Assembly (NCBI GenBank): GCA_951406725.2
Contig: OX597816.1
Span: 102,920,001 to 102,984,000 of the forward strand
From: Octopus vulgaris
Taxonomy: Eukaryota
Length of the DNA: 64,000 bases
Direction of reading: 5' to 3'
A model generated the notes under the pieces. It ran no database searches, had not been told where the DNA came from, and saw only the letters and a program-made list of their open reading frames with translations. Positions 2,535 to 63,989 of this stretch are shown in pieces; the stretch's first letter is position 1, and each line of letters begins with the position of its first letter. The position numbers and the translations under genes were made by a program.

Positions 2535-4140
2535 CCATCATCACCGCGACCACCACCACCACCAATTACTTTTTCTTCTTCTTAGAGTAACTTTGGCCCA
2601 TTTGTGGAATCCCATACTCCTGATTTATCCCGGTTTAACTTACGCACAATATTTTCGTTATCCATTTGGTCATTGTTCTATGGGTCATGTAGAATAAGTT
2701 CTAAAAACAGGGAATTATTTATAATTTGTCATTGATTATTTATATCACTCTTCAAAGCTCTGATTAGGCTTGGAATTGTTGTTGCAACTATAATGTGAGG
2801 GGAGAGCATAAGTTTCATCGCCGAACCCGCAGAGAAAGCCTTGAGATATCTTTGAAAAGAGGAGGCATATCGTGGCTTGTTTCTGTTTGGGTGCAAGCTG
2901 GGACTTTATCGATTCCGTCTGCCTCAACTGCTCAAAGGGTTCTGTTGTTGGAAAACCCTAAATGCTTCGCAAAGCCAGCAAGAGATGTATTTTTATATAG
3001 AACATTTCGTTCGTCGTTTCATTAATATCGTCGATTCGTATATATTTGTATATATGTTTGTATATTAAAGCGTAAACAGTTCATTGGTCAGTGGTCTGGA
3101 AGTACATCGTGTGTTTGTGTATGGAACTCAAAATTTTTTTCTATCTTGTACCATAGTTCATTGACTGCTGTTACTGTAGACACGTGAATTAAAATCATTT
3201 AACCAGGAGTCGGAGACATTCAGTTGTTTAAGTGACGCCTTTGTTATAAAAGTAATAGGTAAAAATACTCTGTAAGTTGTATTATTGGACTGAAATTGTC
3301 GAGTGTAGAATTTCCGCTCTCCCAATTAGAGCTACATTTTATATTTATACCAATGTACCAACTAGTATCTCTGATTTTATCTTTTAACACAGAATTTTTC
3401 TTTATTGCCATTTCAAAATCATTGAGCTTTAACAAATTTTCGAGTTCTTTCCAGGAATGCCTCGTTTATGAAAATCGAGATATCTGTCAAAATGCATATT
3501 CTTTTTTTGTTTTCTACCTTTGTTTGCAATATATCATAGCTAGTGTATATATCAAGGAGAACTACTTCAACACTAATCTACTGTTATAGGTTAGTTATTC
3601 TATAATGAAGATTAACTATATGAAGCTAACCATCATATAGCTTTTCTATATCAAGGCTAAACTTGATATTGCATCGTAATCATGTCATTGATATACCATT
3701 TATCTTCAAGTTTGATGCCTGTATGTTTTTAATGGATATAATTATTTATCCAGTTATTTCTATGAATATATTATTATCGATTTTTTTTTAGCATTGGGTA
3801 GCTGATAATGATTTGCTCAATTGTTTCCTGATGTTCAATGACAAATCTGGTGTTGACATTAAGGCGTTTGTTTTATTACGTCATTGTCGTAATTGTTTTG
3901 AGGTTGGGCATAAACTTTGTACAGATAAGCCTACACATTCATTTTATGAGGTCTGCGTTTTTGAACTATTCATGACTTTTACATTGGTTAACTTTCTTTC
4001 TAAGCAGTCTTCATTGGATAATGACTAGGGAAAGATTTTTTTTTATTTCCAAACCCTCATATTTAGAGAGTTTTTCCATTTTTAATGGAAATACAGTATC
4101 AGAGTATCATCTGTTGTGTTTGATAATTCAAAAGGAGTCA
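1370..4140 (-). pseudogene. Heavily decayed L1/Tx1-like LINE ORF2 (RT plus C-terminal zinc-binding region), interrupted at about 2460-3070
   Basis: Minus-strand peptide remnants occur in the expected RT order: RP..MNV (about 3950), SNLKINGI (about 3710), SP(L)IYTLAM (about 3550), degenerate F(A)D-DISIFI (about 3480), and LQ*KVY resembling the zf-RVT LxWK motif (about 1880). Many stops and frameshifts. Confidence 0.5.
2466..2582. repeat. Compound triplet microsatellite (CCT)n(CAT)n(CAC)n...(TTC)n
   Basis: Directly visible. May be the tail of an unidentified minus-strand insertion at about 2583-3060. Confidence 0.9.
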
Positions 4141-4463: not shown

Positions 4464-4820
4464 TCCTTATTCAACTGTATGCCCAATACAGCATAAATCA
4501 GAACAATTGAAATAAGTTTAGATATTACAAAGTGTCAAGCAGCTGAAATGAGAGTGTCAACATATTCTTGCTGTGGACAGACGGTGTGAGTCTTCTGATG
4601 GACTATTTCACGATTTGTTGATCACTTCTCAGAGAAGTCGCACTCGGTTTCCTTTCTCAATCAATAGCATAGATCAGCTGCTATATAGAAAAAAATGATA
4701 CATCGAGATAACATCATCGTAGATGGCTTAATTTGCATATTTTGCTTTTGAAGGCACATCATTAATTGAACAATCCCACTTTTCTGAATAACACACCGTA
4801 AGTTACCCTTATTGTTGTTG

Positions 4821-6420
<1,600 letters not shown>

Positions 6421-6421
6421 A

Positions 6422-6498
<77 letters not shown>

Positions 6499-6511
6499 CA
6501 TCATCATCATC

Positions 6512-8447
6512 TTTCAATTCTGTTTCCGTTTCTTACCGAGTGTCTTCCTGACACCTAGGGCAGAGAAACACGCTGTATACATTGGTAGGCAATTAAAATG
6601 AACATACCAAATTGACCATTTACAAAGTCATGTGATAGAGAAAAATGAGAAGAAAGACAGGGGGGAAAAAATAAGAAATAAAAAAGTAAACTGAAAATAT
6701 AGGGGGCTAAAGAGAAATAAAATTCACAGCGACAATGCTCTTTTCAGTACGTGTGATGTAACAGCTAAGACAAACTTTTGCACTTCCTGTATGGATGGTA
6801 AGCCAGGGATTATTCTTAAATAATTTTCAGTTCCTTTTTTTTGGTCATTCCAAGTGCTCCTACAATTGCTGGTATTGTAACTGTCTTCAGATACCACACC
6901 TTTTCTGACCCTTTATATTTTCTGAGCTTATCAAATACTTTTGCCGAGATATTATGGTCACAAGGTATGCTCATGTCAATTAATAAACAAACTTTATTGT
7001 TTTGGTCTATCACAACAATATCTGGTTTGTTTGCTTTTATGGTCCGATCTGTACATACTAGGAAATTCCAAAGAATAGTTACATTTTCTTCCTCAGTTAC
7101 AGCCTCAGGGTGGTACTTGTACTATATGTTAGCACTTTTGATTTTATAATGCCGACACATTATGTAGATATTGACCAACTCTGTCATGTCTTCATTTGTA
7201 CTCTACAGTGCTAAAATCTTACATCCAGAGATTAGTTGGTCCACTGTTTCTATCCCATCGTTGTAGTATCGGCACTTTGAGTCTACACCATTTTTCATCA
7301 TATTGGCTTAATAGTTCCAGGTCAATAAGCTCTGATCTTTAGCAGCCAAGATAAATCATCCACTCTCTGTCTTTAACTCTGAGCTCCGTAGCCACTGATG
7401 GATGTACTTCTGGTCTACATCAGCTTGTTTGCTACGGGCCACATATTTGCAATGCAAAGGTTTTTGTTTCCCCCTATCAGCCAATTGTTCAAACGCATTT
7501 TGCTTTGCTATTGATTTCACCTTCTTTGCAACTACAGTTGCTGCACCTCTATCATGCTGTTAAACCTGGATATTATACATAAAATCAGTTGAACATATTT
7601 TGCTCACCTTCATAACAGAATGTAGCTTCTTACAATTTTCATAGATTTCAACGGGTTTAGCATCCAGTCGTTAGATGTTTCAAAATATATTGCCAATCCA
7701 ATTGAGGTGGTTTTGAAGAATATTTCAAGTTGGATCATGCCTCGATCTCCTTGAGCTCTGGGTACGTATAGACGATCTGCATCTTATTGCAAGTCAGCAG
7801 CTTACGGATTTTCCTATCAGTCTTTCTTATTTTGCTCATATCCCTGTTCAACTCATTGAAACTGTAAATAACAACCGGAACTGCTAAAAAATTTATAGCT
7901 AATACCTTGTCACGTGCATTTAATTCGGATTTTAGAACTGCTCGAACTCTCCTGTAACACTCCGTCCTGATCTTCTCTTTCATACTTGCATGCTGAATGC
8001 CAGAGCCTTCATTTGTGCCGAGGTATTTGGAAGTTTGTTCCTGTTCGAGTTCTCTTATGACAGTCACAACATCCAATTCCACTGAATGTAAAGTCTTCAG
8101 CTTCTCTTTGTGGAAAGTGGCCTTGACACATTTATCAAGACCAAATTCCACCCCGATGTCATCACTGAATGTTTTCACAGTACGTAGAAGTCCTTCAAGT
8201 TCATTATCGTCTTTGTCATAGAGTTTTAAGTGATCCATATAAAAGAGATTACTTATTTTCATGTCGCCAATTTTATATCCATACCCTATTCTATTAAGTT
8301 CATTTGTAAGGGGTATTAGGGCTATGCAGAAAATTAAAGGTGAAAGTGAGTTATTGCAAGTCACCTTGGAGAATGCCGCAGTTGATATTAATATTTTTCT
8401 AATCAGTACTCCATTAGAGTGGTATTGTTGGAGATTCGTATTCCACA
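6512..8447 (-). mobile_element. R4/Dong-clade RLE retrotransposon, 5'-truncated, subfamily A2
   Basis: ORF 7735-8541 carries SLSPLIFCIAL and LFYMDHLKLY (RT). 6816-7100 carries KPD...LIDMSIP...KY (RLE). Clearly homologous to 43435-45362. (TAA)n on both sides. Confidence 0.95.
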
Positions 8448-8450
8448 TTA

Positions 8451-8535
<85 letters not shown>

Positions 8536-8563
8536 CATCATTATTATTATTATTATTATTATT

Positions 8564-8960
8564 GAGTGAGAGAGCGGTGCATGACACTGGGATAAAATAT
8601 ATGAAGGCCAGTATACCCGTCATGACTACCCGTCTGATAAGAGTACACCAGGCGCATGCATCACAACCATATGTGCGTGGCATGGTGATCACATATCAGG
8701 ATTAACAGCGCGTGGCCTTGCTGATGGGGCCCAGTTAGAATTTTCTTCAGGTTGAGTAGCCCATCTCGCTCAAATGGTCCCTGAATAAGGGTTGTTTAAA
8801 GATGTTGCACGAAACACCCATCCAAACCCCATGGAATTCCTTTCAACACATGATTATGATGCACCCCCACTACATCTACTCGTGATCAGAGATGCACATA
8901 TAGTTAGCTACTAAGGGACATACTCAACTGATAAGACACTGGTTGGTACTACATCAGGGC

Positions 8961-8962
<2 letters not shown>
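8564..8962 (-). mobile_element. Non-coding ~400 bp element embedded in (TAA)n (candidate non-autonomous retroposon)
   Basis: Complex, relatively GC-rich sequence bounded precisely by (TTA)n on both sides. No RT or RLE peptide and no clear tRNA head. Strand is assumed from the neighbouring elements. Confidence 0.55.
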
Positions 8963-9042
<80 letters not shown>

Positions 9043-9063
9043 GTTATTATTATTATTATTATT

Positions 9064-9653
9064 CAGTAATTTTATTTTTATAGCGTGCTTTCACTTCACT
9101 ACCGAGCGCAGCTCTGTGTGCCTTGGGTATGTACTGTGATTTGTTGTGATGCTCTGATGGTTATTGTATGGAAAGTGTTCTGCGTAGGATGTGTGCAGTG
9201 CCTAGTAGTGCAATTTTCTGTATGTTATATGTGTTTGTAAGTCCTGGTGTTTTTGTTATGTATTTGTCTGAATAATTTTTTTATCATGCCTAATGCACCT
9301 ATTATGATAGGAATTGTTTCTGTTTTCAGATTCCACATTCTAGTTACCTCTATTTCCAGGTCTTTGTATTTTGAGAGTTTCTCCATTTCTTTTAGAGACA
9401 CGTTGTCATCAGCCGGTATTGATACATCAATTAGAAAGCATTTTTTTCTTCATGGTCTCTGACAACTATATCTGGTCTGTTGGCCTTAATTTCTCTATCT
9501 GTGTGTATCGGCATATCCCAGAGTATGGTTGCTTTCTCGTTTTCTGTTACCTTTTCTGGTGTGTGCCTATACCTTTTTTTCTGTTGTTATTCCATAATGT
9601 TGGCATAGCTTCCAATGTATGTAGGTTCCAACTCTGTCATGTCTGTGAATATA
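9064..9653 (-). mobile_element. R4/Dong-clade RLE retrotransposon 3' fragment, subfamily C
   Basis: EYIHRHDRVG, RPDIVVRD, LIDVSIP, KLSKYKDLEIEVTRMW. Near-identical to 63547-63989. (TAA)n tail at 8963-9063. Confidence 0.95.
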
Positions 9654-9685
9654 TTCTTCTTCTTCTTCTTCTTCTTCTTCTTCTT

Positions 9686-9800
<115 letters not shown>

Positions 9801-9815
9801 TTATTATTATTATTA

Positions 9816-10542
9816 CTTTTTTTCTTCTTCTTTCAAATTTGCTTCCATTTCTTGCCGAGTGTCTTCCCGACTCCTAGGGCAAAGAAACTCATAGTATACA
9901 TTGGTAGGCCATTAAACCAAACTCAGTAGTTCGTTCATTTTTTTTTTTTTAAGTTAAATTAAAATACATGAGCAGCAACAGTTCTCACATCGACAATGCT
10001 CTTCTCAATACGTGTGATGTACCAGTTAAGACAATCTTTTGCACTTCTTGCAGGGATGGTAAGCCAGGGATCATTCTCATATAATTTTCGGTTCCCTTCT
10101 TGATCATTCCTAGTGCTCCTACGATCACTGGTATTGTAACCGCCTTGAGATGCCACATTTTCTCAATTTCAATGAGTAGGTCTTTATATTTTCTGAGCTT
10201 GTCAAACTCTTTCGCTGAGATATTATGATCACAGGGGATGCTCATGTCGATCAATAAGCAAACTTTATTGTTTTGGTCTTTCACAACAATATCTGGTTTA
10301 TTGGCCTTGATGGTTCGGTCTGTATGTACTGGAAAGTCCCACAGAATGGTTACATTTTCTCCTTCAGTTACAGCCTCAGGGTGGTGATTATACCACTTGT
10401 CGGCAGTTTTGATATTGTAATGCCGACTTATTAGCCAGTGGAGATATTGGCCAACTCTGTCATGTCTTAATTTATACTCCACTGGTGCTAAGACTTTACA
10501 TCCAGAGATTAGGTGGTCCACTGTTTCAATCATGTCGTTGCA
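9816..10542 (-). mobile_element. R4/Dong-clade RLE retrotransposon 3' fragment, subfamily A1 (young)
   Basis: ORF 9985-10533 differs by one residue from the C-terminal 182 aa of ORF 43637-45187 and the 3' UTR is shared. Bounded by (TTA)n/(TTC)n at 9654-9815 and (TTA)(TTG)n at 10543-10600. Confidence 0.97.
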
Positions 10543-10793
10543 TTATTATTATTATTATTGTTGTTGTTGCTGTTGTTGTTGTTGTTGTTGTTATTATTAC
10601 TATCTTGTTTCCCATGGGTACTAATGTCCATTTTCCCTATCATAGGTTTATCTGCCCCAATATTAGACCATTTTCAATAGTCAATATACACGGTGAAAAC
10701 TTAGAATTATATTTACAAAAATGTTCACTCGTCAACGTTTCTTAACTTACACAGAATACAGATATACGCAGATGTTTACACATGATGATGACA

Positions 10794-40419: not shown

Positions 40420-41165
40420 ACGGGTGTAAGGTTTTAGCACCAGCAGAGTGCAAATCAAGACTTGACAGAGCTGGCCAATATATACATTGGATATGACGGC
40501 ATTATAAAATCAAAACGGTTGACAAATGGTACAAGCACCACCCTCAGGCTGTAGCTGAGGTAGAAAATATAGCCATCCTTTGGGACTTACCAGTATGTAC
40601 AGACCGGACCATCAAAGCAAATAAACCAGATATTGTTGTGAAAGAGCAAAACAATAAAGTCTGTTTATTGATTGACATGAGTATACCCAGTGACCATTAC
40701 ATCTCGGCAGAAGAATTTGATAAGCTTAGAAAATATAAAGATTTGCTAATCGAAAAAAAGTGGCATCACCAAGACGGTTACAATACCAGTAGGAGCACTT
40801 GGATTGATAAAAAAAAAGGAACTGAAAATTATTTGAGGATGATTACTAGCTAGCTAATCATCCATGCAGGAAATTCAAAAGATTGTCTTAACTGGTACGT
40901 CACACGTACTGAGAAGAGCATTGTCGCTGTGAATTTTCTCCCCACCATTATTTTCGTTGTTTACTTTTTTATTTTGTATTTTTCCTTTATGCTACTGTCT
41001 TTCTTCCCCTTTTTCTCTATCACATGACTATGTAAATGAACAATCTGGTGTGCTTATTTTAATGGCCTACCAAAGTATACAGGGCATTTCTCTGCCCCCA
41101 GGTGTCAGGAACACACTCGGCAAGACATAAAAATAAAACTGAAAAAAGATGATAATGAAAATATT
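40420..41165 (+). mobile_element. R4/Dong-clade RLE 3' fragment, subfamily A2 (older)
   Basis: GCKVLAP...GQYIHW, KPDIVVKEQNNKVCLLIDMSIP, KYKDL. 3' UTR similar to 6512-6720. (TAA)n tail at 41171-41254. Confidence 0.92.
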
Positions 41166-41254: not shown

Positions 41255-44200
41255 GGCTATAATGGTACGATTATAATTGTAACGGCAATGATGGCCGTCT
41301 CCCCACGAGCCAACCAAAGCAAAAAAATGATAACATTATCGTAGCACCAAAATGTTTTGGGAAACTAAAAGGAAAACTAAATCAGTATACCAAATCGCTT
41401 GTCCTATGGTTAATCTGGAAGCGCGTCCCCCAGGGAAGAGCCAGTCTGGGATCGAAAAGTCATCAACTGGCACAAACTCTTCTCCGAATACGGACATGGA
41501 TGGTCACTTGAACGGGAAATCCCCCAATTCGAGCCCTCCAAGTTCACCACCACAACCACCACAGAAAGAAAAATGTAAGCGGAACAAATGGATCCGAGAA
41601 GAGTATAAAGAAGTAATATACGCTTATTACTATGCATTAGGTAGGCCATCTCAAGAGAGACACACCGCAAACTCTTACAGTATATGGAGAACACGGAATC
41701 AAGACAGTAGGCCCTATTTGGACGAGAACAAATTAGCAAATGTGAGGAGGGATATCCTTAGAAATAACAGACTCACAGACAGTGAAACAAGCGCGATCAA
41801 GCACGCAACGGAAAATGACATAAATATAAGACACAAAGGAAATGAAGAATCAGATGAACAGTATAGCCCGCCACGAGGCTTAATTGAAAGACTGCCATCT
41901 GACCAAAGTACGCAAAGGCCTGAAGATACAAGAAATTCTATTGTACCTGTTAAAGATAGCCAGGAAAACGAAAAAACAACAGTAACTGAAGATCTCGCAT
42001 TTGCTGAAGAACACAGAGAGTCTATGGCAGAAATGAGGCAGAAAATCCTGAATACACTTGAAGTTGTAAGACATACAAGTATGAATGATAGAGAACCACT
42101 TCATAAACTCTCAAATACAAACCAAAATAAAAAACAAATCCAAATTGGCAACTATGTAACAAATGAAATAATACGAGAATTAAAACCTGATTTTACTGAG
42201 TTAAATGAAATTATTTACGCTTCTGCTAGAGCAATTGAAACCAGCTGTATGCCCCCGAAAAAACAAAGAAAACCAAACCTGGGAAGAAATCAAACCTGGA
42301 GAAGTAAAATTGAAAAAAAAAAAGAGATTGAATTTATGAAATATCAATATTAAATGAACTAATATGTGGAAATGATGTAAGATCCAGAACAGGAAGAAAG
42401 ATGAAGAGAAAATTTGGATCCTCACCAAGAGAAGAACTGATATCAATAAAAGAAACGCTGAAACAAAAAGTCCAAGCAAAAGCCCAAAGAATACGAATAT
42501 TTGAGAAGAGAAACAAGTTTTACAAGCAAAATAAGCTGTTCACATCCAATGCCAAAAAATTCTACAGAGAAATAGGGAAGGAGAAAGTAACAAATGAAAT
42601 AATACGAGAATTAAAACCTGATTTTACTGAGTTAAATGAAATTATTTACGCTTCTGCTAGGGCAATTGAAACCAGCTGTATGCCCCCGAAAAAACAAAGA
42701 AAACCAAACCTGGGAAGAAATCAAACCTGGAGAAGTAAAATTGAAAAAAAAAAAAGAGATTGAAGAAGTTCAAAACTTTTGGAAAAGGATTTGGAGTGAC
42801 AAGAAGACGTACAACATAAATGCAGACTGGATTATACAAACTGAAGGATCCTACCAAAATTTACAACAACAAGCATGGGAAGACATCACAATAGCAGACC
42901 TAAGAAAGGCACTCACGAAGGCCCATAATTGGAAATCCCCCGGTAAAGATAGTGTGCCGAATTTCTGGCTCTCATCGCCCCCATGCGCACACGGTAAGCT
43001 AGTTCAGTTGCTCAATGGAATTATGAGAGACCCAAAGAAAACACCTGAATGGTTAGCAAGTGGCATTACTTACCTACTCCCAAAGAATAACGAAACCAAT
43101 CTTCCAAAAAACTATCGGCCTATAACCTGTCTATCCACCACGTATAAAATCCTAACATCTATCCTGGCGGAGAAAACATGCATTCATGGAGAAGAACGAT
43201 ATTTTCCCCATTGAACAAAAAGGGTGCCGCCGAGGCTCTTACGGATGCAAAGATCAACTGCTAATCAATCGTATGATCCTTGAGAACTGTCACAACAAGC
43301 GCAGAAATCTCAGCACCGCATGGATTGACTATAAAAAGGCTTTCGACAGTATACCGCATCCATGGATCTTGAGATCGCTGGACATCTTCAAAATTTCCCC
43401 TGTGATTTCAAACTTCCTGAAGCACAATATGTCGTTGTGGAATACGAATCTCCAATTATACCACTCTAATGGAGTACTTGCCTCAGAAAATATAAACATC
43501 AACTGTGGAATTTTTCAAGGTGACTCACTTTCACCTTTAATATTCTGCATAGCCCTAATACCCCCTTACAAGTGAATTAAACAGAACAGGGTATGGGTAT
43601 AAAATTGCCAATAAAAAAATAAGCCATCTATTTTATATGGATGACTTAAAACTTTATGGTAAAGACAATAATGAACTTGAAGGCCTATTGCGCACTGTGA
43701 AAGCATTCAGTGATGACATCGGGATGGAGTTTGGGCTTGAGAAGTGTGCCAAGGCCACTTTCCAGAAAGGGAAAGTGAAGACCACAAATTCAGTCGTGTT
43801 AGATGTTGACACAGTCATAAGAGAGCTTGAGCAAGAACAAATATACAAATATTTAGGGATAAATGAATGCTCTGGTATTCAGCATGCAAGCATGAAAGAG
43901 AAGAACAGGAAGGAATGTTATAGGAGAGTTCGTGCAGTCCTGAAATCTGAACTAAATGCACGTAACAAGGTGTTAGCTATAAATTCCTTAGCAGTTCCAG
44001 TTGTTACTTATAGCTACGATGTGTTGAACTGGAATATGAGTGAAGTAAAGAATATAGATAGGAAAATACGCAAGCTGCTGAGTTGTAATAGGATGCACCA
44101 CCCAAAGGCAGACGTAGATCGCCTTTACCTTCCCAGAGCCCAAGGAGATCGAGGCCTGATCCAATTTGAACTAGCTTACAAAACAACCACAATTGGACTG

Positions 44201-45361
44201 GCCAAATATCTCGAAATATCGAATGACTGGATGCTAAAGCTCATGGAAAATCACGAGAGACGAAAGAAGCTTCATTCCATCATAAAGGAAAGCAAAAAAT
44301 TTGCTATTGATCTCGTGCAGGATACCCAAACAGAACAACCCGAGGGAAGTACGGCAATTATTGTTGCAAAGAAGGTGAAAATAATGGCAACGAAAAAAGC
44401 GCACGAGCAATTGGCTGATAGGTGGGAGAAGAAACCTCTGCACGGCAAATATGTGACCCGCAGCAAACAAGCTGATGTTGACCAGAAGCAAACCCATCAG
44501 TGGCTACGGAGCTCAGGGCTAAAAGCAGAGAGCGAAGGTTTCATCCTGGCTGCTCAAGATCAAAGTCTATTAACCCGGAACTACCAGGCCAATGTGATGA
44601 AAAATGGAGCAGACCCAAAATGCCGATTCTGCAACGACATGATTGAAACAGTGGACCACCTAATCTCTGGATGTAAAGTCTTAGCTCCAGTGGAGTATAA
44701 ATTAAGACATGACAGAGTTGGCCAATATCTACACTGGCTAATAAGTCGGCATTACAATATCAAAACTGCCGACAAGTGGTATAATCACCACCCTGAGGCT
44801 GTAACTGAAGGAGAAAATGTAACCATTCTGTGGGACTTTCCAGTACATACAGACCGATCCATCAAGGCCAATAAACCAGATATTGTTGTGAAAGACCAAA
44901 ACAATAAAGTTTGCTTATTGATCGACATGAGCATCCCCTGTGATCATAATATCTCAGCGAAAGAGTTTGACAAGCTCAGAAAATATAAAGACCTACTCAT
45001 TGAAATTGAGAAAATGTGGCATCTCAAGGCGGTTACAATACCTGTGATCGTAGGAGCACTAGGAATGATCAAGAAGGGAACCGAAAATTATATGAGAATG
45101 ATCCCTGGCTTACCATCCCTGCAAGAAGTGCAAAAGATTGTCTTAACTGGTACATCACACGTATTGAGAAGAGCATTGTCGATGTGAGAACTGTTGCTGC
45201 TCATGTATTTTAATTTAACTTAAAAAAAAAATTTTTTTTAAATGAACGAACTATTGAGTTTGGTTTAATGGCCTACCAATGTATACTATGAGTTTCTTTG
45301 CCCTAGGAGTCGGGAAGACACTCGGCAAGAAATGGAAGCAAATTTGAAAGAAGAAAAAAAA

Positions 45362-45362
<1 letters not shown>
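41255..45362 (+). mobile_element. Near full-length R4/Dong-clade RLE non-LTR retrotransposon, subfamily A1
   Basis: Single long ORF architecture between (TAA)n tracts 41171-41254 and 45363-45398. Dong elements are known (TAA)n-specific members of the R4 clade. Confidence 0.95.
41352..45187 (+). pseudogene. Frameshifted RT-RLE polyprotein: N-terminal myb-like region, RT, CCHC knuckle, PD-(D/E)xK endonuclease
   Basis: WIREEYKEVIYAYY...IW...ENKLANVRR (N-terminus); WKSPGKD, NYRPITCL, EQKG, WIDYKKAFDSIPH, GIFQGDSLSP, YMDD (43634-43645); CRFC-x7-H-x4-C, RHD, KPD...LIDMSIP...K..KY. Frame breaks near 42320-42350, 42750, 43180 and 43565. The last 516 codons are open. Confidence 0.95.
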
Positions 45363-63546: not shown

Positions 63547-63989
63547 ACACACAGATAGAGAAATTAAGGCCAACAGACCAGATATAGTTGTCAGAGATCA
63601 TGAAGAAAAAAAATGCTTTCTAATTGATGTATCAATACCGGCAGATGACAATGCGTCTCTAAAAGAAATGGAGAAACTCTCAAAATACAAAGACCTGGAA
63701 ATAGAGGTAACTAGAATGTGGAATCTGAAAACAGAAACAATTCCTATCATAGTAGGTGCATTAGGCATGATAAAAAAATATTCAGACAAATACATAACAA
63801 AAACACCAGGACTTACAAACACATATAACATACAGAAAATTGCACTACTAGGCACTGCACACATCCTACGCAGAACACTTTCCATACAATAACCATCAGA
63901 GCATCACAACAAATCACAGCACATACCCAAGGCACACAGAGCTGCGCTCGGTAGTGAAGTGAAAGCACGCTATAAAAATAAAATTACTG
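63547..63989 (+). mobile_element. R4/Dong-clade RLE 3' fragment, subfamily C (young)
   Basis: RPDIVVRD...LIDVSIP...KLSKYKDLEIEVTRMW...HILRRTLSIQ*. (TAA)n on both sides. Near-identical to 9064-9505. Confidence 0.95.

What the first reader, a model, noticed from the sequence alone, without database searches (positions are those of the whole stretch)
45293..45332. 3'-UTR RNA structure conserved by covariation across three divergent Dong subfamilies
Seen: about 30-45 nt upstream of the (TAA)n tail, every intact Dong 3' UTR folds by eye into the same architecture although the sequences differ: outer helix, 1-nt 5' bulge, 4-bp helix, asymmetric internal loop YNAG/UY, 5-bp helix, 5-6 nt loop. A1 (45293-45332 and its copy near 9846-9886): UUUCU-u-UGCC-cuag-GAGUC-gggaa-GACAC-uc-GGCA-AGAAA. 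A2 (about 6528-6569, minus): GUUUCU-c-UGCC-cuag-GUGUC-aggaa-GACAC-uc-GGUA-AGAAAC. C (63920-63956 and near 9100-9135): CAC-a-UACC-caag-GCACA-cagagc-UGCGC-uc-GGUA-GUG. B (about 5009-5045, minus): UUG-u-CUCU-ugag-GUGUC-cgagu-GAGAC-uu-GGAG-c-CAA. Helix sequences change compensatorily while the internal loop stays. Known: R2 RT recognises its own 3'-UTR structure for target-primed reverse transcription. Inference: this is the template-recognition signal of these microsatellite-targeting R4/Dong RTs. I do not know of a published description of it, but cannot exclude one.
Basis: partly seen in the sequence, partly recalled or inferred. Interest (0 to 1): 0.75.

Follow-up and report, generated by a model that had tools for sequence, protein, structure and literature searches.

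The report
Conserved RNA tag ending Dong retrotransposons
Microsatellite-targeting jumping genes from this genome and from many unrelated samples end in the same small RNA hairpin shape despite very different sequences, and this hairpin is likely the tag by which their enzyme picks the RNA to copy into the genome.

Summary
Real, and wider than reported. The hairpin lies in the 3' UTR of a Dong-type retrotransposon (RT, CCHC knuckle, restriction-like endonuclease) inserted in (TAA)n. The refined fold is a basal helix, a 3x1 internal loop (YNA/H), a 6-bp helix and a pentaloop with a G at position 3.

A geometry-only search finds it in 20 of 31 tail-complete families from this genome and unrelated metagenome records (shuffles 1.2), with the loop G in 20 of 20. 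In a 26-row alignment five pairs covary beyond a tree-aware null. It sits 24-72 nt before the tail, whatever its distance from the stop codon.

A 558-nt non-coding passenger inserted in (TAA)n carries a look-alike without sequence homology; this is suggestive only.

Function is inferred by analogy with the UnaL2 stem-loop and the R2 3'-UTR core. No binding or retrotransposition test exists. I found no description in Rfam, in 10 paper searches, or among the earlier findings listed by four look-ups.

The parts
45295..45331 (+). Conserved 3'-UTR hairpin of the A1 element (model columns 1-37)
   Evidence: model hit 35 bits (A1 is in the training set)
45299..45302 (+). Basal helix P2, 5' arm (pairs with 45324-45327); extends outward as 45293-45297 with 45328-45332
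   Evidence: pair 6-32 covaries; pairs 7-31 and 8-30 are near-invariant C-G
45303..45305 (+). 3-nt side of the 3x1 internal loop (YNA; opposite single nucleotide 45323)
   Evidence: A at third position in 24 of 26 rows and 17 of 20 geometry-only hits
45306..45322 (+). 6-bp helix P3 (45306-45311 with 45317-45322; A.A mismatch at 45308/45320) closed by pentaloop 45312-45316 with invariant G 45314
   Evidence: four P3 pairs significant; G in 20 of 20 geometry-only hits
41255..45362 (+). Near full-length A1 Dong-type element; ORF broken by frameshifts and an internal duplication (42156-42332 like 42587-42764); stop codon 45185-45187; starts directly after a (TAA)n run
   Evidence: uninterrupted relatives L011-L013 with stop-to-stop frames of 1235-1258 aa
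45363..45399 (+). (TAA)n tail / target repeat
9849..9885 (-). Same hairpin, second A1 copy (5'-truncated)
   Evidence: 35 bits
6530..6566 (-). Hairpin of A2 element, perfect 6-bp P3
   Evidence: 32.2 bits; in training
41089..41126 (+).
   Evidence: 12.1 bits, E 0.83
63920..63957 (+). Hairpin of family C (6-nt loop with G at position 3; A.C mismatch in P3)
   Evidence: 12.6 bits, E 0.61, held out
9096..9133 (-). Hairpin of family C, second copy
   Evidence: 14.1 bits, E 0.23, held out
5009..5045 (-). Hairpin of family B (UGA/U loop); this copy is mutated in P3 and in the loop
8562..8962 (-). Element D: internally deleted copy of a 558-nt non-coding repeat inserted in (TAA)n; candidate Dong-dependent passenger
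8606..8653 (-). Look-alike hairpin in D: 13-bp basal helix, UUA/U loop, 6-bp helix with one bulged A, GGGUA loop
   Evidence: not found by the covariance model

Best explanation
This is an RNA hairpin of about 30 nt, conserved in shape in the 3' UTR of Dong-type retrotransposons, and it likely serves as the tag that the element's own protein binds to select its template and hold the RNA 3' end for target-primed reverse transcription at (TAA)n repeats. Shown: position, geometry (basal helix, 3x1 loop, 6 bp, pentaloop), covariation of five pairs, invariant loop G, near-invariant internal-loop A, sense-strand bias. Inferred: the protein reads the loop G and the bend at the internal loop, 6 bp apart, more than the helix sequence; the '-1'/NTE-1 region ahead of the RT is a likely contact; the unpaired spacer of about 40 nt would carry the UAA-repeat end to the active site, where it would pair with the nicked target; non-coding RNAs such as D would be copied in trans by carrying the same shape.
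For: 1. Sequence-only pattern (no pairing asked): 27 of 85 UTR regions from other samples hit. 95 of 100 inner-helix cells pair, against 64.8 +/- 4.0 with arms permuted (0 of 2000 reach it). Reverse strand 0 of 85, upstream coding 0 of 85, shuffles 0.125.
2. Geometry-only search (no base asked): 20 of 31 tail-complete families, shuffles 1.2, reverse strand 4. Loop G 20 of 20, loop A 17 of 20. Loop size 5 gives 20, sizes 3, 4, 6, 7, 8 at most 4.
3. MAFFT aligns 26 rows without gaps. 86.9% of 260 cells pair against 62.1% shuffled and at most 41.2% with slid partners. Five pairs exceed a tree-aware null at E 0.010-0.013 over all column pairs, each with about 4-5 double changes on separate branches. 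The same five stay at E <= 0.03 over the 10 tested pairs in 20-row and 17-row subsets.
4. G.U 24 against A.C 8 favours the sense RNA strand.
5. Distance to the tail is 24-72 nt (median 40, 21 rows read). Distance from the stop codon runs from overlapping to about 165 nt.
6. Families outside the training set are found: L039 (E 0.0009), H at L008 (E 0.006), L042 (E 0.035).
7. The protein aligns with R2 proteins from ahead of the RT, in what I read as the '-1' region. In R2Bm that region binds a 3'-UTR core of about 40 nt that suffices for priming (PMC10499050, passages).
8. D: 35 of 37 complete 3' ends are followed by TAA and 21 of 28 complete 5' ends preceded by it, and 24 of 37 carry the look-alike. 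A control SINE-like family gives 17 of 61, 1 of 36 and 0 of 61.
Against: No binding, probing or retrotransposition data. 11 of 31 families miss the strict geometry. Some are near misses (C has a 6-nt loop; several are single decayed copies). The 21-locus group 2 gave no consensus for this hairpin in RNAalifold (14 loci aligned), and octopus families F/G fit only by eye with a bulge. The youngest family, A1, carries a fixed mismatch in P3, and its minimum-energy fold differs from the model. Pairs 7-31, 8-30, 12-28, 13-27 and 5-33 are not significant. Over all column pairs only 1 of the 5 pairs keeps E < 0.05 in each stricter subset. The pattern, geometry and row choice were devised after looking at these same sequences, and families with indels were left out of the alignment. 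Folding energy does not tell the strands apart (13 of 26). D is not found by the model at E <= 5, and 56 of 1000 shuffles of its end match the relaxed descriptor.
Confidence: 0.75

Rival explanations
1. The hairpin is real but serves RNA handling by host factors (3'-end formation, protection from exonucleases, export or translation) and not template choice by the element's protein.
For: Conserved shape and loop bases fit any protein-binding site. No poly(A) tail is seen, so the RNA needs some end protection. In a few families the hairpin overlaps the stop codon.
Against: Its place is tied to the tail, not to the stop codon. A non-coding passenger has a look-alike. Rfam gives no cis-regulatory match at these places. 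In the L2 and R2 systems comparable elements serve template recognition (PMC1636434, PMC10499050; passages).
Confidence: 0.15
2. The hairpin is part of a larger or catalytic RNA structure (for example a self-cleaving or 3'-processing element with tertiary contacts), of which only the core was seen.
For: The invariant loop G and internal-loop A could form tertiary contacts. Outer pairs 3-35 and 1-37 rank 6th and 7th in covariation. AI notes on this genome report a hammerhead-like fold in HERO 3' UTRs (not checked).
Against: No Rfam ribozyme match. No other conserved columns appear in the 37-column alignment. Flanks differ in length and sequence between families.
Confidence: 0.05
3. Shared descent plus selection of examples: the covariation is produced by my choice of rows, and the fold is not under selection.
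For: Geometry and rows were chosen after inspection. Single-sequence z-scores are weak. The null is my own implementation on 26 rows.
Against: The pairing test on a sequence-only pattern, the base test on a geometry-only pattern, slid-partner controls, stricter subsets and held-out families all agree.
Confidence: 0.05

Closest known systems
3' stem-loop of eel UnaL2 and its SINEs (L2 clade; PMC1636434, passages read)
   Same: A hairpin near the 3' repeat, with a pentaloop (GGAUA) in which one G is the proposed recognition site, and an internal-loop hinge needed for retrotransposition; shared with non-autonomous partners.
   Different: L2 is an APE-type element (recalled); these carry a restriction-like endonuclease. 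Here the invariant G is at loop position 3, not 2. The hinge is a 3x1 loop 6 bp below the loop. Helix sequence turns over while the geometry holds. D shares no detectable sequence with its presumed driver.
R2 3'-UTR core ('R2 tag': P1, J1/2, P2) bound by NTE-1 (PMC10499050, passages read)
   Same: A related RLE protein (the closest solved structures are R2 proteins); a small element of about 40 nt in the 3' UTR with a few conserved unpaired bases.
   Different: The R2Bm core is two stems joined by a single-stranded junction, drawn from distant parts of a 248-nt UTR, and R2 UTR sequences are reported as too divergent for easy identification. Here it is one contiguous hairpin, alignable without gaps across families whose proteins differ by half or more.
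Dong elements (R4 clade): Dong of Bombyx mori, DongAg, DongBg; 'Dong-R4' of Octopus
   Same: TAA-microsatellite targeting (PMC3812793, passages); single ORF with RT, knuckle and RLE. Dong-R4 is listed with 5 recently active families in Octopus vulgaris (PMC13282606, passages).
   Different: In the passages read only the 5' HDV-like ribozyme of Dong is described (PMC3774820); no 3' structure is.
Ferritin-type iron-responsive element (recalled)
   Same: Asymmetric 3x1 loop below a short helix; family C has a six-base loop beginning CAG.
   Different: Upper helix 6 bp, not 5; the loop is a pentaloop in nearly all families; Rfam gave no IRE hit over a C copy at E <= 10.

Membership tests
Dong (R4 clade) non-LTR retrotransposon | Single long ORF with reverse transcriptase | tested here: met
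   stop-to-stop frames of 1235-1258 aa in L011-L013; RVT_1 E 7.6e-07, 0.1 bit under the curated cut-off on the window's partial frame; closest solved chains are R2 proteins
Dong (R4 clade) non-LTR retrotransposon | C-terminal CCHC knuckle and PD-(D/E)xK restriction-like endonuclease | tested here: met
   read directly in the translation: CRFC...H...C, then KPDIV...D; motif definitions recalled; the R2 alignments span this region
Dong (R4 clade) non-LTR retrotransposon | Insertion into (TAA)n microsatellites | tested here: met
   62 of 199 segments between TAA runs end in the A-type 3' end, all 62 coding; the window copy is bounded by TAA runs on both sides
Dong (R4 clade) non-LTR retrotransposon | Phylogenetic grouping with named Dong/R4 reference proteins | not testable with these tools
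   none of the 120 homologs listed is named Dong or R4; the tree has no named references
Dong (R4 clade) non-LTR retrotransposon | 5' HDV-like ribozyme | tested here: inconclusive
   Rfam scan of the L011 5' region gave no ribozyme family among 8 weak hits; no dedicated descriptor was run
3' template-recognition stem-loop of stringent LINEs (UnaL2/R2 type) | Conserved structure near the 3' end of the element RNA | tested here: met
3' template-recognition stem-loop of stringent LINEs (UnaL2/R2 type) | Shared with non-autonomous partners | tested here: inconclusive
   D carries a look-alike and is TAA-targeted, but the model misses it and 56 of 1000 shuffles match
3' template-recognition stem-loop of stringent LINEs (UnaL2/R2 type) | Required for protein binding and retrotransposition | not testable with these tools
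   needs bench assays
Any Rfam family (including R2 element, ribozymes, IRE) | Match to a curated covariance model | tested here: not met
   no hit at the hairpin in 8 loci at E <= 1 or in window 8500-9950 at E <= 10, apart from a weak opposite-strand microRNA hit overlapping D; none at gathering score for D

The most novel reading that the evidence does not exclude
Dong-type retrotransposons across animals share one portable tag of about 30 nt, read by shape (a 3x1 hinge and a loop G six base pairs apart) and not by helix sequence. One protein could then copy RNAs of distant families, and an unrelated non-coding RNA (D) became a microsatellite-targeting passenger by evolving the same shape independently.
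Probability: 0.3. Interest if true: 0.78.

Novelty: new variant of a known kind. Interest (0 to 1): 0.58.

Why it matters
Template choice is understood structurally for R2 and functionally for L2, but I found nothing on it for the Dong/R4 group. A contiguous, gap-free hairpin of about 30 nt with two near-invariant unpaired bases gives a ready list of mutants and a minimal tag to test. The protein comes from a family that is young and abundant here (150 of 150 scored matches identical). If the tag works in trans, it explains how passengers such as D reach (TAA)n arrays, offers a marker for annotating Dong 3' ends and their partners, and suggests a compact handle for RNA-templated insertion into microsatellites.

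Tried and rejected
Single-sequence folding: weak z-scores, not used as support. Folding energy by strand: no difference. The energies my script gave for structures forced to hold a mismatch pair are unreliable and were ignored.

The 1-nt bulge as a general feature is rejected.

Viral contigs: 299 pattern matches, none a relative. Rfam: nothing at the hairpin. tRNA head for D: none in 23 stretches. Homology of D to Dong UTRs or metagenome loci: none at E <= 0.01. Group 2 consensus fold: does not recover the hairpin.

Sequencing runs: no RNA holder listed. Contigs of 4 of 20 runs laid on the A1 end showed no listed difference inside the hairpin, and add nothing on expression or covariation.

Papers: 10 searches listed no paper whose title or abstract start describes a Dong/R4 3' structure. 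Searches were swamped by unrelated papers. The original Dong paper is not held. Kojima and Fujiwara 2004, the Rex6 paper and Repbase reports were not seen, and no supplements were opened, so a prior description there cannot be excluded.

No genome-wide search with the model was run, because 37 positions carry too little information for 2.8 Gb. No protein structure was predicted.

Full report
**Setting.** The window lies in a 2.8-Gb genome. It is probably an octopus: I infer this from the repeat content, from the literature on Dong-R4 in Octopus (PMC13282606, passages) and from unchecked AI notes. The finding sits in the 3' UTR of an element running 41255-45362, bounded by (TAA)n on both sides. 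Its ORF is broken here, but relatives L011-L013 have stop-to-stop frames of 1235-1258 aa with RT, CCHC knuckle and a PD..D endonuclease motif. The closest solved chains are R2 proteins. The family (A1) is young: 150 of 150 scored matches to its last 98 residues are identical. TAA targeting is the mark of Dong elements (PMC3812793, passages). No named Dong/R4 reference was available, so the label rests on anatomy and target, not on a tree.

**Checking the observation.** Folded alone, the copies are unremarkable (z -0.19 to -2.34), and three of its four upper helices contain a mismatch. In about 700 kb of this genome (window plus 70 loci chosen mostly around A1 copies), B's mismatch proves private to the window copy (7 of 9 copies pair). 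A1's A.A (70 of 71) and C's A.C (21 of 24) are fixed. A, B and C are 45-55% identical in the C-terminal protein and fall on separate branches, interleaved with elements from other samples.

**Independent sequences.** A profile of the C-terminus fetched 80 metagenome loci (the best of 333) and 6 from genome contigs. Two complementary tests follow. First, a pattern of bases only, asking no pairing, hit 27 of 85 UTR regions. In its 20 distinct matches 95 of 100 inner-helix cells pair, against 64.8 +/- 4.0 when arms are permuted (0 of 2000). Reverse strands and upstream coding DNA gave 0 of 85 each, and shuffles 0.125. Second, a pattern of pairing only, asking no particular base, hit 20 of 31 families with a complete tail (174 of 221 regions reach a tail). 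Shuffles gave 1.2 and reverse strands 4. All 20 have G at loop position 3, 17 of 20 have A at the third base of the internal loop, and only a loop of five works. Both patterns were devised after I had looked at these sequences; what each leaves free is what it tests.

**Covariation.** I took 26 rows, one per family or subfamily, anchored by a base profile without the inner helix columns. Three rows come from the A group. Six low-scoring rows (B, E, E2, L065, L111, L109) were included partly because they fit by eye. Families with indels (C, L042, L093, L103) and those without a recognisable match were left out. MAFFT aligned the rows without gaps, and RNAalifold predicted the 6-bp helix unaided. 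With the full structure 86.9% of 260 cells pair, against 62.1% shuffled and 21-41% with slid partners. In my R-scape-like test (G-test with average-product correction; null by reassigning substitutions on a protein tree; 300 null alignments) the five top column pairs are 6-32, 16-24, 14-26, 15-25 and 17-23, at E 0.010-0.013 over all pairs. Each has about 4-5 double changes on separate branches, against at most 1 for slid partners. Dropping the six low-scoring rows, or also all rows from this genome, leaves the same five at E <= 0.03 over the ten tested pairs, but only one per subset under 0.05 over all pairs. Pairs 7-31 and 8-30 hardly vary, and 5-33, 12-28 and 13-27 are not significant. G.U outnumbers A.C 24 to 8, which points to the sense RNA.

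**The refined element.** It has a basal helix with a near-invariant CC/GG top, a 3x1 loop YNA opposite one base, six pairs starting with G-C, G.U or A-U, and a pentaloop with G in the middle. Where the single base is U it can pair with the A, leaving a 2-nt bulge. One internal mismatch in the upper helix is tolerated. A covariance model built from the 26 rows ranks the seven Dong ends of the window first and finds families outside its training set: L039, H and L042 at E 0.0009-0.035, and L114 and L060 weakly. The hairpin ends 24-72 nt before the tail (median 40 in 21 rows), while its distance from the stop codon runs from overlap to about 165 nt.

**Limits.** Eleven of 31 families miss the strict geometry. 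Group 2 (21 metagenome loci) shows by eye a 6-bp helix and a UUGUU loop at the same place, and some members score weakly with the model, which had one of them in training. Its consensus fold does not recover the hairpin (14 loci).

**A passenger.** Window 8562-8962 is an internally deleted copy of a 558-nt repeat, D. It has a fixed 5' end, no frame over 59 codons, no tRNA head and no Rfam match at gathering score. Of its complete 3' ends 35 of 37 are followed by TAA, and 21 of 28 complete 5' ends are preceded by it. A SINE-like control family gives 17 of 61 and 1 of 36. About 55 nt before its tail D folds into a 13-bp helix, a UUA/U loop, six pairs with one bulged A and a GGGUA loop. Its common polymorphisms keep the pairs (G.U/G-C 18/15; C-G/U.G 18/12, of 35 copies). 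The relaxed descriptor hits 24 of 37 D ends and 0 of 61 control ends. Against this, the model misses D, 56 of 1000 shuffles match the descriptor, and D has no detectable homology to any Dong UTR held. I put the chance that this hairpin is the functional equivalent at about one half.

**How it likely works.** In R2Bm a core of about 40 nt in the 3' UTR wraps the NTE-1 helix and suffices for priming (PMC10499050, passages). In eel UnaL2 a pentaloop G is the proposed recognition site and an internal-loop hinge is required (PMC1636434, passages). The A1 protein aligns with R2 proteins from just ahead of the RT, which I read as the same '-1' region. A hairpin whose helix sequence is free, but whose hinge A and loop G are held six pairs apart, and whose place is set by the 3' end, is what such a binding tag would look like. 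Binding, the contact surface, pairing of a UAA end with the target and use in trans are all inferred.

**Novelty and verdict.** The kind of element is known; this instance appears undescribed. Rfam has no match. Ten paper searches listed none on it. Passages read in PMC3774820, PMC5678591, PMC9115989, PMC13282606, PMC13580325, PMC13708176, PMC4758252, PMC10294476 and PMC3812793 mention no Dong 3' structure; none was read whole. Several primary papers and all supplements were unseen. Four look-ups of earlier findings showed none on it (searches listed 8 of 187 and 8 of 69; two searches were empty). Verdict: a real, conserved structure (about 0.95), likely the template tag (0.75); a new variant of a known kind; interest 0.58.

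Noticed in passing
window 4809-10560: Five TAA-bounded elements of four Dong lineages plus D are nested head to tail on the minus strand (A1, C, D, A2, B), each in the tail of a neighbour.
   Followed up: partly
L140:3795-4352; window 8562-8962: D has a fixed 5' end with no tRNA or Rfam match; some copies keep the first ~30 nt and lose the next 100-160 nt. Its origin and promoter are unexplained.
   Followed up: partly
L011 about 7650-7745 (minus); window 41255: The 5' end of long A1 copies gave no ribozyme hit in Rfam, although Bombyx Dong has an HDV-like ribozyme; best weak hit was snoR113 (E 0.016, far below gathering).
   Followed up: partly
L027, L028, L136, L020, L150, L154 (families F/G); L055; L114: In elements with very short UTRs the stop codon appears to lie inside the hairpin, in F/G as the UGA of the internal loop (by eye).
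   Followed up: no
L067-L110, group 2 (21 loci): One branch nested among motif-bearing elements has a divergent end: a UUGUU-loop hairpin plus a second conserved block nearer the tail.
   Followed up: partly
L039:1991-2026 and L065:1190-1226: Sister elements differ by a clean compensatory change in the upper helix; L039 has a four-base loop.
   Followed up: no
window 42156-42332 and 42587-42764: Internal duplication (178 nt aligned at 98.9%) inside the A1 copy.
   Followed up: no
L120:6072-6109, L142:1241-1277, L008:129-165, L130 about 3540-3600: Further octopus Dong-like families with variant hairpins; L130 does not fit the geometry.
   Followed up: partly
L111-L116: Six loci with these retrotransposons lie in bacterial metagenome-assembled genomes, likely host contamination.
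   Followed up: no
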